A stretch of 18,146 nt of DNA. Origin: Octopus sinensis. Lineage: Eukaryota. Numbering within the stretch: position 1 is the first letter of the stretch; each line of letters starts with the position of its first letter. The position numbers were made by a program. Location of the stretch: the NCBI RefSeq assembly GCF_006345805.1, contig NW_021824559.1, forward strand, positions 1-18,146, given 5' to 3'. Shown in pieces: positions 683 through 5,810 of the stretch.

Positions 683-3600
683 AATTATAATAAAGGGTTA
701 ATTGCAACAAATTGCTCAAAACCACATACCGAAAATATTAGAAATAGCAGCCAAATAAATCACTATTTTTCTCTACTAATAAGTCTCCAGAAACAACAAA
801 TTGTAACTCGTATATGGTAAATAGAAAGAATATACGAAATCCCAGCCTATTGGATTATTATAGACGAATCGTTTCTGGATTAGAACCGAAGGCTCATTCC
901 CTTGTCAATATTGTTACGGAACGGACTGGAATCGCCCGTCGTCGCTCGTCCCGAACGGCTCGCACACTAGTTCCGCCACGGAACCCAAAGAGGCGGAGAG
1001 AGGAGATACAGATGGATACTGCCACCACCTCCTCAGCACAGAGATACAGAGGCACAATCCGAGATACAACCCAAAGAGGCAAGGCAACAACTGGCAACAC
1101 TGGCTTATATTCAACAACTACTAGTTTATATGACAATCAATTGCTACACATCAAATACATTTAAGGCAAACAACAAATCAATACATCATACGGGTATACC
1201 ACAGATCAATGCATTTAACAACATCATGTAACAATATATCAGTCCGGAGACACAACAAGTCATATACAGTATTTCAAAGGTACACGTCCGAAGACACAGT
1301 TCTTTTAAAGTCTTTTCTAAACATCACAGATAATGTCACATCAACACAATTCTGAACATGAATACCACAACTCGATAATCAACATATCGACAAGTCCTTG
1401 ACTGTTCTTTTCACTGTTCAATACATCGTGACACGTATCAATGCACAAACACATACCTCAATTCCTAATTGAATCTGCCAGTGTCCCATTCCTCTCAATA
1501 CTGCCAAATCCTTCTGTACATATCCCTTCTGCATATTCCAATCGCTTGCTCTTCAAATCCCAAGATCCCTGCTGATCTGTCCAAGATCCGTCTGTGTTCT
1601 TCCACGACCAACTACCAACTGCCCTTCTTGACGACCAACTGCGAACTGCCCTTCTTGACGACCAACTACCAACTGCCCTGATCCGTCCTTCCTGACGACC
1701 AACTACCAACTGCCAAGACCTCACTTCGTCTCTGTGCTTCTTCCACTCCCTCATCTCCCTCTGTTCTACCACCTATAGTCTTTCTATTTGCTATCTGATT
1801 CCTTACTCTATCTATATCGCCTACTGTCCCTTAGCCTCTCTATCTGTCCCTTAGTCTTATACTCTATCTCTCTCATGACAGCTCTACCAAACTCTCTGCC
1901 TGTCCTTCTCTCCTACTGTCAATACCCTCTCCATCTGCTCTTAGATTCCCTTAATCTGTCTTCCTCTTTCACATTCTTCACTGACCCTTAATTCACCTGA
2001 ATCTGACAGGACAATGGGTTTATCCTAAAGTAGGTCATTGGGACATACTACACTAGCTAACCCCGTAACACTACCCCCTACCTAAGCTTTTGTCGACCCG
2101 ACAAAAACATACTAAACTCGCACCTCCGAGCAGCAGACTCTCCAGGGGCTGGGGGTCCCCTTGGGTGGTTTCTCCTCCGGGGGTCTCACCTCCCACGGCC
2201 ACCACTTCAGCACCAGCCACAGGTTGGCACCTTCCCTCTGCGGCTTGGGCAATACCACCGCCAACGCCGCCAGGCTTCCTACTAGCCGCCTACAATAGGT
2301 GCACCGTCCGAGGAAGTTCCTCAGATCCCTTACACAGGCAGGGTCCGGCCAATCCTTCACAGTGGCCACCTTCCTCAGGGCTCTATAGCCCACGTAGCAT
2401 CTTGCTGTACCATCTCCATTCCGCGCAATTATCGCCGACGACCAGGGACCATTCCGCTTTTCCACTGTTCCCCGTCGCCGATATCTCCTCTTGCGCTGCT
2501 GTACTGAGACCTTCCTCCGGCCTCGCTGCCTCCTCAAGCGACAACCGCCCTGGTCGACGAAACGTTCTGCCAGGTCCGTGCGACCAGCATCCAACAACCC
2601 TCGCGACCAACGTCCTGCGCTCTTCACCAACAGTTGCCTCTTCCGCAACTGCATCAGCGGACCACGAACTCCCTTAACTTCATCTCTGCACCGGCAGAAC
2701 TGACCCCGCCGCTGGTTTACCGTCCGGCGCAGTTCCACGATTTGCCCCCTGCAAATCGCCTGCGCAGCCTTCAATAACTCGGCCGACCCAACCAGCGCTC
2801 TGTCAACTTCTGCTTCCACCAGGGTCCAGCCGACCCTTAATTGAGTTCCTATTCCGCACTGCATGTCGGGCTCCACCGGCCCCACGCAACCATCGAGCAC
2901 AGCGCTCCCCCAAGTGCCAACAAAGCACCAGCGACTCCTTGCGGACCGCCTCCTCAACTGCATCCGTGGGCCACCACCTCCTTCAACTGCGTTGCCGTAT
3001 CGGCAGAGCTGGCCCCACCACTGGTTCGCCATCTGGCACGATTCCTCGATTTGCCTTCTGCAAATCGCCTGTGCCACTTCCAAAAGATCGGCCGACCCAG
3101 CCAGCGCTCCACCAGCTTCTGCTTCCACTAGGGTCCACCCGACCCTCAATCCAGCTTTCACTAGGCACTGCCTTCGGGCTCCACCGGCCCCCGCAACACC
3201 ATCAACCACAAAGCTCACCCAACGCTGAAGCAGTCTTCCTGGTCTCGGTGGACCCACCACCGTTCGCAGCCGTCTCGCCTCGTCAACGGGCCTGGTCCTT
3301 TTCCTCACCAGCTTCCGTCCCGCAGGCCTCACAACACACACGCCCGGCCGCCAGTCCATCCACGCCTGTGGCCTCTCCACAGTGGGAACCATACAGTCCC
3401 TCCGGGCCCCAAGAGACAGGGGTCCAGACACCAAAGGACCCGCACACGGCATAGCACCTGCCGCGACCATCACACACAGAGCCGGAACCTCGGACTCAGC
3501 GACATTCGCCCCAGACCTCGCCAGCTCTTCGTCCTGAGCTCCGAGAGACAGGGGTCGAGATGCCAAGGGCTCTAGACACGGAACAACAGCATCAGCCATA

Positions 3601-5810
3601 ACAACTTCCACAGGCCTTTTGGTTACTTCAACCTCTACGGGTTCCAAATCACAAGATTTCTTGGGTACAGCGTCACAAATTTCGGCAACCATCCCAGGTT
3701 CCGCAAACACAGCCGGTCCAGCATCACAGATTTCGGCAACCAACCCAGGTTCCGCAACACTTCCTTCACTATCTGTTTCACTCGATGCTTCGTTCGACGG
3801 GCAATCTCTGCCCACAGGACCGTCGCTATCCTCGGTCCAACACCGATCCTTCAAAGCTGACCCATCCGCAACCTCAAACTCCTGCTGATCTGCCCACAGG
3901 CCCTGTCGCCTCTTGTCCATCCTTTCCATGAACGCGTCCGTCTGCGCCATCTGGCCCCTCAACATCTCCACAATCAGGGCAAGCGAAATCTCCTCGTCTC
4001 CGGTCTGACAACCAGACAAATCCATAGCGAAAAAAAAGAAAAACCGATCGAAACGCAGCAATCAGGACGATCCCACCTCTGACACCAGTTGTTACGGAAC
4101 GGAGCGGAATCGCCCGTCGTCGCTCGTCCCGAACGGCTCGCACACTAGTTCCGCCACGGAACCCAAAGAGGCGGAGAGAGGAGATACAGATGGATACTGC
4201 CACCACCTCCTCAGCACAGAGATACAGAGGCACAACCCGAGATACAACCCAAAGAGGCAAGGCAACAACTGGCAACACTGGCTTATATTCAACAACTACT
4301 AGTTTATATGACAATCATTGCTACACATCAAATATTTAAGGCAAACAACAAATCAATACATCATACGGGTATACCACAGATCAATGCATTTAACAACATC
4401 ATGTAACAATATATCAGTCCGGAGACACAACAAGTCATATACAGTATTTCAAAGGTACACGTCCGAAGACACAGTTCTTTTAAAGTCTTTTCTAAACATC
4501 ACAGATAATGTCACATCATACAATTCTGAACATGAATACCACAACTCGATAATCGACATATCGACAAGTCCTTGACTGTTCTTTTCACTGTTCAATACAT
4601 CGTGACACGTATCAATGCACAAACACATACCTCAATTCCTAATTGAATCTGCCAGTGTCCCATTCCTCTCAATCCTGCCAATTCCTCTGAATACTGCCAA
4701 ATCCTTCTGTACATATCCCTTCTGCATATTCCAATCGCTTGCTCTTCAAATCCCAAGATCCCTGCTGATCTGTCCAAGATCCGTCTGTGTTCTTCCACGA
4801 CCAACTACCAACTGCCCTTCTTGACGACCAACTGCGAACTGCCCTTCTTGACGACCAACTACCAACTGCCCTGATCCGTCCTTCCTGACGACCAACTACC
4901 AACTGCCAAGACCTCACTTCGTCTCTGTGCTTCTTCCACTCCCTCATCTCCCTCTGTTCTACCACCTATAGTCTTTCTATTTGCTATCTGATTCCTTACT
5001 CTATCTATATCGCCTACTGTCCCTTAGCCTCTCTATCTGTCCCTTAGTCTTATACTCTATCTCTCCATGACAGCTCTACCAAACTCTCTGCCTGTCCTTC
5101 TCTCCTACTGTCAATACCCTCTCCATCTGCTCTTAGATTCCCTTAATCTGTCTTCCTCTTTCACATTCTTCACTGACCCTTAATTCACCTGAATCTGACA
5201 GGACAATGGGTTTATCCTAAAGTAGGTCATTGGGACATACTACACTAGCTAACCCCGTAACAATATAATATTTCCTATAAATCTAGAAATGCTAGGAAAA
5301 AAAACTCACCCATTACACCGGCTCGATCAAGCGACATCGAACGATCTAACGGACTGCTAGCATCTCTACATTTATATAGACAGGCGAATTCGTATCTCCC
5401 TCCAAAATTTTTTCCTAGCATTTCTAGATTTATGGGAAATATTGTGTTGAAAAGGAAATGAACTTTCGGTTCTAAATCAGAAACGATACGTCTATAATTA
5501 ATCCAATAGGCTGAGATTTCGTTGTTTTCTTTCTCTTTACCATATACGGGTTACAAATTCTGTTTGTTTGTGGAGACTTTTTTATTAGTAGGAGAAATAG
5601 TGATCTATTTGGTTGCTATTTCTAATATTTTCGGTGTGTGGTTTTGAGCAACTTGTTGCAATTAACCCTTTATTATAATTATATAATTCTTATCAAATAT
5701 GGTCTTTTCCATACCGAAAAATCTACTAGGTGAAATTTATTGATTTTATTAAATTAATTATATTTTACCCGTTTTTGTATATATATATATGTATGTATAT
5801 ATATGCATAT

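What the first reader, a model, noticed from the sequence alone, without database searches (positions are those of the whole stretch)
912..5262. Young non-autonomous LTR retroelement whose whole interior is one intact, enzymatically dead 637-aa ORF
Seen: all cis elements are intact, the LTRs are ~99% identical by eye, and a stop-free ORF begins ~45 nt after the PBS and ends ~30 nt before the PPT. There is no CCHC knuckle, D(T/S)G protease site, YxDD, RNase H or integrase motif. Known: non-autonomous LTR elements (TRIM/LARD) are typically non-coding or carry broken ORFs. Inference: the protein is highly diverged from gag-pol yet open, so translation may be selected. It could act as a satellite/defective-interfering protein that hijacks helper particles, or the ORF may simply protect the RNA from nonsense-mediated decay. 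This is the best candidate here for an undescribed system.
Basis: partly seen in the sequence, partly recalled or inferred. Interest (0 to 1): 0.85.

Follow-up and report, generated by a model that had tools for sequence, protein, structure and literature searches.

The report
Gutted octopus LTR retrotransposon, open frame
This is a young copy of a Ty3/gypsy-type jumping gene in an octopus genome that has lost its enzymes but still carries one long open reading frame made of a lineage-specific front part fused to decayed polymerase leftovers, which is a known kind of defective element and not a new system.

Summary
On the minus strand, 912-5262 is an LTR element. Its LTRs are 1173 and 1159 nt and 99.6% identical. 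It has TG..CA ends, a 4-bp duplication, PBS-like and PPT-like sites, and one 637-aa ORF filling 95% of the interior.

The last ~370 residues are recognisable Ty3/gypsy Pol leftovers. They match hundreds of Pol polyproteins, and the RT catalytic core, RNase H and integrase are gone. Only the first ~250 residues are orphan: one confident helix followed by predicted disorder, with no Gag signature. All close relatives are Octopus vulgaris gene models.

Non-autonomous LTR elements that keep decayed coding remnants are already described, so this is a new member of a known kind.

One point stays open. The Pol remnant has lost 21 of 49 near-invariant residues and contains a diverged internal duplication, yet it has no stop or frameshift. 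Simulations put that at P≈0.01-0.04. Neither dN/dS nor codon-position patterns show constraint at the residue level. Openness may be selected in the replicating lineage. It may instead follow from youth, G-rich composition and post hoc choice.

Genomic copies, the helper element and expression could not be examined.

The parts
5263..5266 (-). Upstream target-site duplication (ATAT in element orientation)
   Evidence: Read directly. The same 4 nt occur at 908-911. The surrounding DNA is AT-rich, so the match carries little weight on its own.
4090..5262 (-). 5' LTR, 1173 nt, TG..CA ends
   Evidence: Repeat pairs D6, D8-D11. Alignment to the 3' LTR gives 1149 of 1154 aligned positions identical and 5 indel events. 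It contains a 27-nt tandem array at 4797-4872 and a 19-nt array at 4662-4705.
4068..4087 (-). PBS-like site beginning TGG, 2 nt after the 5' LTR
   Evidence: Read. The matching tRNA was not identified: no tRNA gene lies in the window and no octopus tRNA set was available.
2112..4025 (-). Single 637-aa ORF (stop included), the only long open frame of the interior. It is a fusion of a lineage-specific N-terminal region and Pol remnants. Counted against Pol relatives it has 0 stops, 0 frameshifts, 1 in-frame internal deletion in RT, 1 in-frame tandem duplication, and loss of everything downstream of the RT thumb.
3276..4025 (-). N-terminal ~250 residues, found only in Octopus proteins. Pfam finds no Gag, zinc-knuckle or protease signature, and the profile comparison finds no match to the Gag/PR-containing Pol relatives. 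The region is acidic and internally repetitive.
   Evidence: Pfam 0 families. hhalign of the family against Pol relatives matches only downstream of this region. ESM Atlas best score 0.75, below the lead threshold. AlphaFold2 gives pLDDT <50 for residues 58-246 apart from three isolated positions.
3861..3995 (-). Predicted long alpha-helix (residues 11-55), the only confident structure in the N-terminal region
   Evidence: AlphaFold2 block pLDDT 83-96. The sequence is nearly unchanged in the 60-67% identical subfamily P0006/P0015.
2166..3272 (-). Pol-derived region (residues ~252-620), given as one part. It contains remnants of the stretch that follows protease in relatives (present twice), the linker before RT, the first part of RT, and the RT thumb. 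The catalytic core is absent.
   Evidence: phmmer hits to Ty3/gypsy Pol carrying Pfam RVT_1, RT_RNaseH_2, Integrase_H2C2 and rve. BLASTP to P0017 and P0043. hhalign probability 97%. All 210 tblastn HSPs fall in this one frame.
2071..2091 (-). PPT-like purine-rich tract (16 of 21 purines) abutting the 3' LTR
   Evidence: Read.
912..2070 (-). 3' LTR, 1159 nt
   Evidence: The 27-nt tandem array lies at 1604-1679.
908..911 (-). Downstream target-site duplication (ATAT)
   Evidence: Read.

Best explanation
The feature is one young insertion of an internally deleted, non-autonomous Ty3/gypsy-type (Metaviridae-like) LTR retrotransposon in an Octopus genome. All close relatives are O. vulgaris proteins.

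Shown:
- It has two near-identical LTRs, a PBS-like site, a PPT-like site and a 4-bp duplication.
- It has one ORF. Its last ~370 residues are homologous to the part of Ty3/gypsy Pol that runs from just after protease to the RT thumb.
- It lacks the RT catalytic core (one in-frame deletion of roughly 140-150 residues) and all of RNase H and integrase. It carries one in-frame tandem duplication.
- Its first ~250 residues are a lineage-specific, mostly disordered acidic region behind one long helix.

Inferred:
- The RNA can only be copied and inserted by the protease, RT and integrase of an autonomous relative acting in trans. It would use the retained LTR/PBS/PPT signals, as other non-autonomous LTR elements do.
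- The long open frame is largely inherited from the coding parent. It is kept by rearrangements that happened to be in frame, by a G-rich, A/T-poor sense strand, and by the youth of this copy.
- A contribution from selection for an uninterrupted frame in the replicating lineage is possible, without constraint on most residues, but it is not shown.
For: Structure.

The ORF exceeds chance: 0 of 2000 simulations reach 649 codons.

Pol homology:
- 364 phmmer hits at E<=1e-3. The top 15 are short proteins; the 10 whose names were looked up, or shown by the first search, are O. vulgaris models. The rest of the 150 listed are almost all distant matches to the Pol-derived part.
- All 8 of the 8 longer hits sampled carry RVT_1, RT_RNaseH_2 and Integrase_H2C2, and 7 of the 8 also carry rve.
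- BLASTP to P0017 gives two collinear pieces, 33% and 48% identical, separated in the relative by about 140 residues that cover nearly all of its RVT_1.
- The same two-piece pattern appears on the solved Ty3 RT 4ol8_A (E=0.015).
- hhalign of family against Pol gives probability 97%.
- Of 100 columns at least 90% conserved in 20 Pol relatives, the ORF is gapped at 51.
- Pol homology occurs in one frame only and nowhere else in the window.

Youth: K=0.43% between the LTRs. On the scale quoted in PMC13282606 (JC 0.09 = 25 My) this is well under 1 My, which is an inference. P(no new stop since insertion)=0.84, so intactness since insertion needs no selection.

Family: 22 of 23 family proteins queried match the ORF's N-terminal part by tblastn.

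Literature: 43 of 115 non-autonomous LTR families in sugar beet retain coding remnants, and 15 of them retain decayed POL domains (PMC13570524, passages).
Against: - No autonomous partner was found. The nearest Pol relatives are only 32-49% identical and come from arthropods, amphioxus or unnamed contigs. The 'longer' word search found nothing. Trans-mobilisation is therefore inferred, not shown.
- No second copy of the full 637-aa form is known. Apart from the window's own annotated protein, only P0002 (52% identity, one repeat unit) covers any of the Pol-derived part.
- The Pol remnant has lost 21 of 49 near-invariant residues, whereas relatives keep 41-49. It is therefore not a fresh deletion of a working copy. 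A frame that stays open after that much change is improbable under neutral drift (P about 0.007-0.013).
- AATAAA does not occur in the element.
- The PBS was not matched to a tRNA.
Confidence: 0.8

Rival explanations
1. Openness itself is under selection in the replicating lineage. Copies whose RNA carries an uninterrupted frame from near the PBS to near the PPT propagate better, while most residues of the Pol-derived part are free to change. Possible reasons are a short 3' untranslated stretch that escapes nonsense-mediated decay, a need for ribosome transit, or use of the protein as a sequence-tolerant scaffold (N-terminal helix plus an Arg-rich C-terminal half).
For: - The ORF keeps only 28 of 49 near-invariant Pol residues (relatives keep 41-49), yet it has 0 stops and 0 frameshifts.
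- Simulated substitution to that level leaves a stop-free frame in 0.7-1.3% of runs.
- The two internal repeat units differ at 75 of 270 in-frame sites with no stop and no indel. Both stay stop-free in 4.3% of simulations.
- The LTR pair carries 5 indels, all of lengths not divisible by 3, while the ORF has no detectable frameshift. The naive Poisson P is about 0.02 (one search counts, my arithmetic).
- The region is strongly basic: 13 and 16 K+R per 50 residues around residues 451-550.
- The N-terminal helix is conserved across subfamilies.
Against: - The finding was picked because the ORF is long, so these P values are post hoc.
- dN/dS between the units is 0.58, and the out-of-frame controls give 0.48 and 0.85. 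Differences by codon position are 26/24/25, so there is no coding signature.
- At least 2, arguably 3, of the 5 LTR indels sit in slippage-prone repeats. Discounting them raises P to about 0.1-0.2.
- A G-ward substitution bias lowers the real rate of stop creation below the simulated one.
- No sibling DNA could be examined.
Confidence: 0.3
2. The open frame is a by-product with no selection at all. On this reading it results from a coding parent, rearrangements that happened to be multiples of three, a purine/G-rich sense strand poor in the T and A that stops need, a very recent insertion, and ascertainment by a reader looking for long ORFs.
For: - P(no new stop since insertion)=0.84.
- There is no residue-level constraint.
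- Two in-frame rearrangements have a prior of about 1 in 9 (inference).
- Interior composition is A 19.5, C 20.4, G 38.7, T 21.4%.
- Random sequences of the same composition already give open runs of 248 codons on average and up to 598.
- Replacements toward G are in excess from A, T and C.
Against: - 0 of 2000 composition-matched simulations reach 649 codons.
- The other two sense frames carry 20 and 32 stops.
- The amount of change at conserved Pol positions predicts about 5 stops in 232 codons.
Confidence: 0.4
3. RNA editing footprint. Adenosine-to-inosine editing of the element's RNA before reverse transcription wrote A-to-G changes into new copies. Such changes can remove stop codons but never create one, and they turn His, Tyr, Lys, Asn and Ile codons into Arg, Cys, Arg/Glu/Gly, Ser/Asp/Gly and Val codons. 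The result would be a scrambled but open, G-rich frame without any selection.
For: - A>G-type amino-acid replacements, Pol relatives to ORF, are 24.9 against 8.8 G>A per comparison (ratio 2.82). Relatives used as target give 0.55-2.28 (median 0.98), and T>C/C>T is only 1.25.
- At the 21 changed near-invariant columns, 8 are reachable by A>G alone against 3 by G>A alone.
- There are 0 His where 11.9 are expected (0 of 20000 shuffles), Cys is 28 against 12.3 expected, and Tyr is 5 against 8.7.
- G greatly exceeds C on the sense strand of the whole element, but not in the rest of the window.
- That coleoid cephalopods edit RNA heavily is my recall and was not checked here.
Against: - A>G explains only about 38% of the losses at conserved columns, and T>G and C>G are also raised.
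- The two repeat units differ by 28 A/G, 20 C/T and 28 transversions, with 14:14 direction and no 5'-neighbour pattern at the A/G sites.
- Gln codons (CAG, 25) are not depleted although His codons are absent.
- Remaining A's are not depleted after A.
- The LTRs have A about equal to T.
Confidence: 0.08
4. A host gene domesticated from a retroelement, kept for the organism's benefit.
For: The window's own annotation contains a 306-aa protein identical to the ORF's C-terminal half (P0003). The frame is open.
Against: - The copy has intact, near-identical LTRs with PBS/PPT, so it is a recent insertion.
- The N-terminal part is multi-copy on several chromosome-scale contigs.
- There is no residue-level constraint.
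- No orthologue from another species was found.
Confidence: 0.02

Closest known systems
Non-autonomous LTR retrotransposon families that retain decayed GAG/PROT/POL remnants (second category of Ty1-copia/Ty3-gypsy derivatives in sugar beet; PMC13570524, passages read)
   Same: LTRs plus PBS/PPT are kept. The interior is derived from an autonomous element, with partly decayed RT remnants and no complete enzyme set. No recent autonomous partner is detectable for many such families.
   Different: Those are plant families. That paper describes patchy, fragmented remnants, whereas here the remnants sit in one uninterrupted 637-codon frame fused to a lineage-specific N-terminal region.
TR-GAG elements (terminal-repeat retrotransposons with a GAG ORF). 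Known to me from PMC13570524 passages and its reference 55; the original paper was not read.
   Same: A short LTR element whose interior is essentially one ORF, with no enzymes, regarded as semi-autonomous.
   Different: The ORF here has no detectable GAG domain (Pfam 0 families, no CCHC, no predicted capsid-like fold), and more than half of it is Pol-derived.
LARD / TRIM
   Same: Non-autonomous LTR elements presumed to be mobilised in trans.
   Different: By definition these have non-coding interiors. TRIMs are under 1 kb and LARDs over 4 kb, with long non-coding interiors (PMC13570524). Here 95% of a 2-kb interior is one ORF.
Autonomous Ty3/gypsy (Metaviridae) elements of animals, e.g. hits P0016-P0025 (pseudoscorpion, amphioxus, decapods, unnamed contigs), and the solved Ty3 RT (4ol8_A)
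   Same: Sequence homology over the post-protease stretch, the pre-RT linker, the RT N-terminus and the RT thumb. The LTR/PBS/PPT layout and the 4-bp duplication also match.
   Different: Identity is only 32-49%. The RT catalytic core, RNase H and integrase are absent, protease is undetectable, and 21 of 49 near-invariant residues are replaced.
Non-autonomous Troyka elements of sea urchins (PMC12440569, passages read)
   Same: An animal example of short LTR-type elements that no longer encode a functional Gag-Pol.
   Different: Troyka is a distinct lineage. In the passages read it is listed for Sepiida and Myopsida, not for octopods. No relation to the present element was tested.

Membership tests
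LTR retrotransposon (structural definition) | Two direct long terminal repeats with TG..CA ends flanked by a short target-site duplication | tested here: met
   The LTRs are 1173 and 1159 nt with 1149 of 1154 aligned positions identical and TGTTACGG..CCGTAACA ends. ATAT lies on both flanks.
LTR retrotransposon (structural definition) | Primer-binding site next to the 5' LTR and polypurine tract next to the 3' LTR | tested here: inconclusive
   A TGG-initiated site lies 2 nt after the 5' LTR, and a tract of 16 of 21 purines abuts the 3' LTR. Complementarity to an octopus tRNA could not be tested (no tRNA in the window; no tRNA set available).
Ty3/gypsy (Metaviridae-type) lineage | Pol sequence homology to Ty3/gypsy RT and its flanks | tested here: met
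   364 phmmer hits at E<=1e-3. All 8 of 8 sampled long hits carry RVT_1, RT_RNaseH_2 and Integrase_H2C2, and 7 of the 8 also carry rve, in the RT-RH-IN order. Ty3 RT 4ol8_A matches at E=0.015. hhalign probability is 97%.
Ty3/gypsy (Metaviridae-type) lineage | Domain order PR-RT-RH-IN within the element itself | tested here: not met
   Only flanks of RT remain. Pfam finds 0 families in the ORF, and no Pol homology occurs in other frames or elsewhere in the window. The element is therefore a derivative of the lineage, not an autonomous member.
Autonomous retroelement | Catalytic RT (Y.DD), protease (D[TS]G), RNase H and integrase present | tested here: not met
   Each motif occurs 0 times (the motif patterns are recalled). 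51 of 100 conserved Pol columns are gapped in the ORF.
TR-GAG | The single ORF encodes a GAG (capsid/nucleocapsid) domain | tested here: not met
   Pfam gives 0 families at E<=1, and there is no CCHC. hhalign of the family against Pol relatives that include Gag- or PR-bearing members matches only the Pol part. AlphaFold2 shows one helix and then pLDDT<50 up to residue 246. Foldseek gives 0 hits at E<=1e-3. The family alignment is shallow (Neff 1.4), so a very decayed Gag is not excluded.
LARD / TRIM | Interior without coding capacity | tested here: not met
   1914 of 2019 interior bases form one ORF.
Non-autonomous LTR element mobilised in trans | Multiple dispersed copies sharing LTR/PBS/PPT with an autonomous partner | not testable with these tools
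   No eukaryotic genome DNA collection was open. Protein evidence only: 22 of 23 queried family proteins match the N-terminal part, and those with names lie on different chromosome-scale contigs of O. vulgaris. No partner Pol was found.
Domesticated retroelement gene | Single-copy, LTR-less, orthologous across species, under purifying selection | tested here: not met
   The LTRs are intact and the N-terminal part is multi-copy. dN/dS between the internal units is 0.58 and indistinguishable from out-of-frame controls.

The most novel reading that the evidence does not exclude
An LTR-element lineage in which the continuity of the reading frame is what is maintained, rather than the protein sequence. 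This could happen in two ways. Only RNAs translated almost end to end might escape decay or get packaged. Alternatively, sense-strand A-to-G RNA editing, which can erase stops but never make them, might keep rewriting the frame. Either way, a 'dead' polyprotein frame would persist for long periods as a structural feature of the RNA. The complete absence of histidine and the G-ward replacement bias would be its footprints.
Probability: 0.2. Interest if true: 0.65.

Novelty: new member of a known kind. Interest (0 to 1): 0.33.

Why it matters
As it stands, this is a tidy example of how a Ty3/gypsy element decays into a helper-dependent derivative in an octopus. LTR elements make up only 0.77% of the O. 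vulgaris genome, and 'recently active' Ty3-like insertions average about 4 kb (PMC13282606, text and supplement passages). That average suggests short derivatives like this one may dominate recent LTR activity there.

It also matters for annotation. At least 16 named O. vulgaris gene models carry this element's N-terminal coding piece, and some have it fused to real host domains.

If frame continuity without residue constraint were confirmed across copies, it would give a concrete case for asking why some defective retroelements stay translatable.

Tried and rejected
- **Pfam on the ORF:** nothing at E<=1.
- **ESM Atlas on residues 1-270:** best score 0.75, below the lead level.
- **Foldseek against PDB:** 0 hits at E<=1e-3. 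The best are dUTPases at E=0.1 over about 59 columns, a lead only for the beta-rich unit. Model mean pLDDT is 53.8.
- **Word-index searches:** the 'longer' and 'shorter' searches added no relative.
- **Gag or protease homology of the N-terminal region by profile-profile comparison:** none.
- **Rfam and tRNA scans of the window:** nothing.
- **dN/dS between the two internal repeat units as a test of coding constraint:** uninformative, 0.58 against 0.48 and 0.85 in shifted frames.
- **ADAR-type neighbour preferences:** not seen at the unit differences.
- **Troyka lineage:** read about but not linked to this element.
- **'Single recent deletion of a working copy':** rejected because 21 of 49 near-invariant Pol residues are already replaced.
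- **Chance ORF:** rejected.
- **Not checked:**
  - Dfam/Repbase and the curated O. vulgaris repeat library of PMC13282606. Only summary tables were visible in its supplement.
  - RNA-seq and ribosome profiling.

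
Full report
**1. What is there**

The window has no N. Repeat finding gives collinear direct repeat pairs that add up to two long terminal repeats. Read on the minus strand, the element runs 5262 to 912.
- The 5' LTR is 1173 nt (5262..4090) and the 3' LTR is 1159 nt (2070..912). Both start TGTTACGG and end CCGTAACA.
- The interior is 2019 nt.
- Global alignment of the LTRs gives 1149 identical columns, 5 mismatched columns and 5 indel events (1, 19, 1, 2 and 1 nt). 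That is 99.6% identity, K=0.43%. An earlier alignment with slightly wider bounds gave 1152/6/5.
- ATAT flanks both ends. This is consistent with a 4-bp target duplication, but it is weak evidence in AT-rich DNA.
- A TGG-initiated PBS-like site starts 2 nt after the 5' LTR.
- A tract with 16 of 21 purines abuts the 3' LTR.
- Each LTR carries a 27-nt tandem array, and the 19-nt LTR indel is a copy-number change of a 19-nt array.
- AATAAA does not occur in the element on either strand.

**2. The ORF**

The only long frame of the interior is 4025..2112 on the minus strand, 637 aa from its ATG and 649 codons open. It fills 1914 of the 2019 interior bases.
- The other two sense frames hold 20 and 32 stops.
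- In 2000 first-order Markov simulations of the interior, the longest open run in any frame averaged 248 codons (sd 68, maximum 598). None reached 649.
- The interior is G-rich on the sense strand (A 19.5, C 20.4, G 38.7, T 21.4%), which makes long open runs easier but does not explain this one.
CCHC, D[TS]G and Y.DD each occur 0 times (the patterns are recalled), and Pfam gives 0 families at E<=1.

The one addition is that the element lies on the minus strand.

**3. What the protein is**

A phmmer search of 1.84 billion representative proteins gave 364 hits at E<=1e-3, 25 at E<=1e-10 and 12 at E<=1e-30.
- The 15 best are short proteins (95-356 aa) covering the ORF's first ~270 residues. One exception is a 306-aa protein identical to the ORF's C-terminal half, which the window itself encodes.
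- Names were seen for 16 family members that match the window, and all are Octopus vulgaris 'hypothetical predicted' or chimeric models. Six further members were not looked up.
- From rank 16 on, the hits are mostly long proteins, and all match only the ORF's C-terminal part.
- Of 8 sampled, all carry Pfam RVT_1, RT_RNaseH_2 and Integrase_H2C2, and 7 also carry rve. This is the Ty3/gypsy Pol architecture.
- A second sample of 8 shorter hits shows partial versions of the same domains, and one has none.

Pairwise and profile comparisons show what the Pol-derived region contains. It spans roughly residues 252-620 (window 2166-3272). In collinear order it holds the following:
- the stretch that follows protease in the relatives
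- the linker before RT
- roughly the first 30 residues of the RT domain
- the RT thumb that follows the Pfam RT domain

The solved Ty3 RT gives the same two-piece picture weakly (4ol8_A, E=0.015).

**4. Breaks counted against relatives, without places**

- RT has one internal in-frame deletion of roughly 140-150 residues that removes the catalytic core.
- The region upstream of RT carries one in-frame tandem duplication of 309 nt.
- RNase H and integrase are wholly missing.
- Protease is not detectable.
- There are 0 stops and 0 frameshifts.

Supporting counts:
- All 210 tblastn HSPs from 136 Pol-like queries fall in the ORF's frame and nowhere else in the window.
- Of 100 alignment columns at least 90% conserved among 20 Pol relatives, the ORF is gapped at 51. 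It has a residue at 49 and keeps the conserved residue at 28 of those. Each relative keeps 41-49.

The remnant is therefore not a fresh deletion of a working gene. It has been evolving without RT function for some time.

**5. The N-terminal ~250 residues**

No relative outside Octopus was found.
- The ESM Atlas gave nothing usable (best 0.75).
- Profile-profile comparison of the family with Pol relatives that include Gag- and protease-bearing members aligned only the Pol part. The family alignment is shallow (Neff 1.4).
- AlphaFold2 was run on a 40-sequence alignment of the ORF with family members and short Pol hits. It gave mean pLDDT 53.8 and pTM 0.32.
- The model shows one confident helix (residues 11-55, block pLDDT 83-96), then pLDDT<50 for residues 58-246 apart from three isolated positions. 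In the Pol-derived part it shows moderately confident beta and helical pieces.
- Foldseek against the PDB gave 0 hits at E<=1e-3. The best are dUTPases at E=0.1 over about 59 columns, which I treat only as a lead for the beta-rich unit.
- The region is acidic (10-13 D+E per 50 residues) and the C-terminal half is strongly basic (up to 16 K+R per 50).

I cannot call the N-terminal region a Gag. It occupies Gag's position and has a conserved helix. But every feature that defines Gag and could be tested was not met.

**6. Family and host**

By tblastn, 22 of 23 family proteins queried match the ORF's N-terminal part at 43-93% identity. The named ones lie on different chromosome-scale contigs, so the N-terminal coding piece is dispersed and multi-copy.

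Subfamilies at about 60-67% (P0006, P0015) and about 40-52% (P0002, P0029) exist. P0002 has the same order, acidic region then post-protease unit then pre-RT linker, but with one unit instead of two.

Only P0002 and the window's own protein cover any of the Pol-derived part. I therefore do not know whether the 637-aa form exists in more than this one copy.

The nearest Pol relatives are 32-49% identical and come from a pseudoscorpion, decapods, amphioxus or unnamed contigs. None is named Octopus. The 'longer' search found nothing.

Transposon proteins are often masked before annotation, so the absence of a partner among proteins is weak evidence.

**7. Is the open frame selected?**

Since insertion, no selection is needed. 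At K/2 about 4 substitutions are expected in the ORF, 4.2% of possible substitutions make a stop, and P(no new stop)=0.84.

Indels give a hint. The LTR pair has 5, none a multiple of 3, which scales to about 4 expected in the ORF (naive P about 0.02). However, at least 2, arguably 3, of the 5 lie in slippage-prone repeats, which brings P to about 0.1-0.2 (my arithmetic).

Before insertion the case is stronger.
- Random substitution with the empirical spectrum, carried far enough to change about 43% of residues as at the conserved Pol columns, leaves 232 codons stop-free in 0.7-1.3% of runs.
- The two internal repeat units differ at 75 of 270 sites with no stop or indel. Both stay stop-free in 4.3% of runs.

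Against selection on the protein:
- dN/dS between the units is 0.58, and the same DNA read in the shifted frames gives 0.48 and 0.85.
- Differences fall 26/24/25 on the three codon positions.

The evidence fits 'open but unconstrained'. These P values are post hoc, because the finding was chosen for its long ORF. A substitution bias toward G (next section) would also lower the true rate of stop creation.

**8. Composition oddities**

The sense strand has G far above C over the whole element (LTR G 30.7/C 13.8; interior 38.7/20.4), unlike the rest of the window.

Compared pairwise with 20 Pol relatives, replacements of the A>G type outnumber G>A by 24.9 to 8.8 per comparison (ratio 2.82). Relatives used as target give 0.55-2.28. 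T>C/C>T is 1.25, and T>G and C>G are also raised. At the 21 changed near-invariant columns, 8 are reachable by A>G alone and 3 by G>A alone.

The ORF has no histidine at all (11.9 expected; 0 of 20000 position-preserving shuffles give zero). Cysteine is 28 against 12.3 expected.

An RNA-editing footprint would fit some of this. It would also explain a scrambled yet stop-free frame without selection. Several results argue against it as the main cause:
- The repeat units differ by 28 A/G, 20 C/T and 28 transversions, without direction or neighbour preference.
- CAG codons are plentiful.
- A is about equal to T in the LTRs.

I keep it as a low-probability reading.

**9. Comparison with what is known**

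PMC13570524 (passages read) reports that 43 of 115 non-autonomous LTR families in sugar beet retain coding remnants.
- 28 retain GAG/PROT only, like TR-GAG.
- 15 retain partly decayed POL domains.
- 24 of the 43 have no detectable recent autonomous relative.

The paper argues that TRIM, LARD, TR-GAG and 'defective' elements form a continuum.

PMC12440569 (passages) notes non-autonomous Troyka elements in sea urchins.

PMC13282606 (text passages and supplement passages) reports for O. vulgaris:
- LTR elements are 0.77% of the genome, with 116 Ty3-like families.
- Among insertions at most 2% from consensus there are 9 Ty3-like families with 147 insertions totalling 592,027 bp, about 4.0 kb each. 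That is the size of this element and shorter than I would expect for a full Ty3/gypsy element (recalled, not checked here).

Family-level descriptions were not visible, so I cannot say whether this family is already in that library. Dfam and Repbase could not be consulted.

PMC8967140 (passages) confirms that LTR/Gypsy elements are a minor component in octopuses.

My searches for a cephalopod description of such an element were made, and none of the listed papers describes it.

By that paper's time scale (JC 0.09 = 25 My), the LTR divergence implies an insertion well under 1 My ago. This is an inference.

**10. Verdict**

The feature is real and correctly delimited. It is a helper-dependent deletion derivative of a Ty3/gypsy-type element: a new member of a known kind, not an undescribed system.

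What remains unexplained is the combination of heavy residue decay, an unbroken frame, zero histidine and a G-ward bias. That can be settled with purely descriptive data from octopus assemblies and transcriptomes, which were not available here.

Noticed in passing
window 3456-3520 (minus strand) and proteins P0001, P0004, P0007, P0014, P0154-P0158: Many O. vulgaris gene models start inside this element's ORF, usually at its second Met. They leave it at a few points that coincide with AG|GT in the window sequence and then continue into unrelated sequence. P0001 goes on to RING and Death domains, and P0156 is an 818-aa choline-transporter-like protein. This points either to annotation chimeras or to real element-initiated spliced transcripts.
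   Followed up: partly
window 9816-10232, minus strand: An ORF fragment with an ankyrin repeat (Pfam Ank E=1.2e-6). It is probably an exon of a host gene on the same strand as the element, so the element may sit in or downstream of that gene in sense orientation.
   Followed up: partly
window 13895-14698, minus strand (possibly continuing to ~15038): A 267-aa ORF with the zf-RVT domain (E=3.3e-8), which is the C-terminal part of a non-LTR (LINE-type) reverse transcriptase. The upstream piece 14763-15038 had no Pfam hit, and a microsatellite separates it from anything further upstream.
   Followed up: partly
window 15030-16050 and 13340-13590; 90-700 and 5724-5964: Long GATA-type microsatellite arrays and TA-rich microsatellites. 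They generate spurious long ORFs such as 14763-16079 (438 aa of SIYL repeats).
   Followed up: no
window 2112-4025, minus strand: The 637-aa ORF contains no histidine (11.9 expected; 0 of 20000 shuffles) and 2.3 times the expected cysteine. CAT and CAC are also scarce in the other two frames, 7 each.
   Followed up: partly
window 912-5262: The sense strand of the whole element has about twice as much G as C (LTR 30.7/13.8; interior 38.7/20.4). The rest of the window does not show this. The interior is 59% GC against about 44% in the LTRs and about 39% in the rest of the window.
   Followed up: partly
window 912-5262: The canonical AATAAA hexamer does not occur in the element on either strand. 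A TATAAA-like site lies in the last fifth of each LTR (read), so the polyadenylation signal must be non-canonical.
   Followed up: no
window 2112-3032, minus strand (protein P0003): The public annotation of this very contig apparently holds a 306-aa protein equal to the ORF's residues 332-637. The annotators' model starts at an internal Met and misses the first half.
   Followed up: no
Pol-derived beta-rich unit of the ORF (within window 2166-3272): The best, non-significant Foldseek matches of the AlphaFold2 model are dUTPases (E=0.1, probability up to 0.89, ~59 columns). This hints that the conserved stretch after protease in this Ty3/gypsy group may be a dUTPase-like barrel. Pfam found no dUTPase domain in the 16 relatives scanned.
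   Followed up: partly
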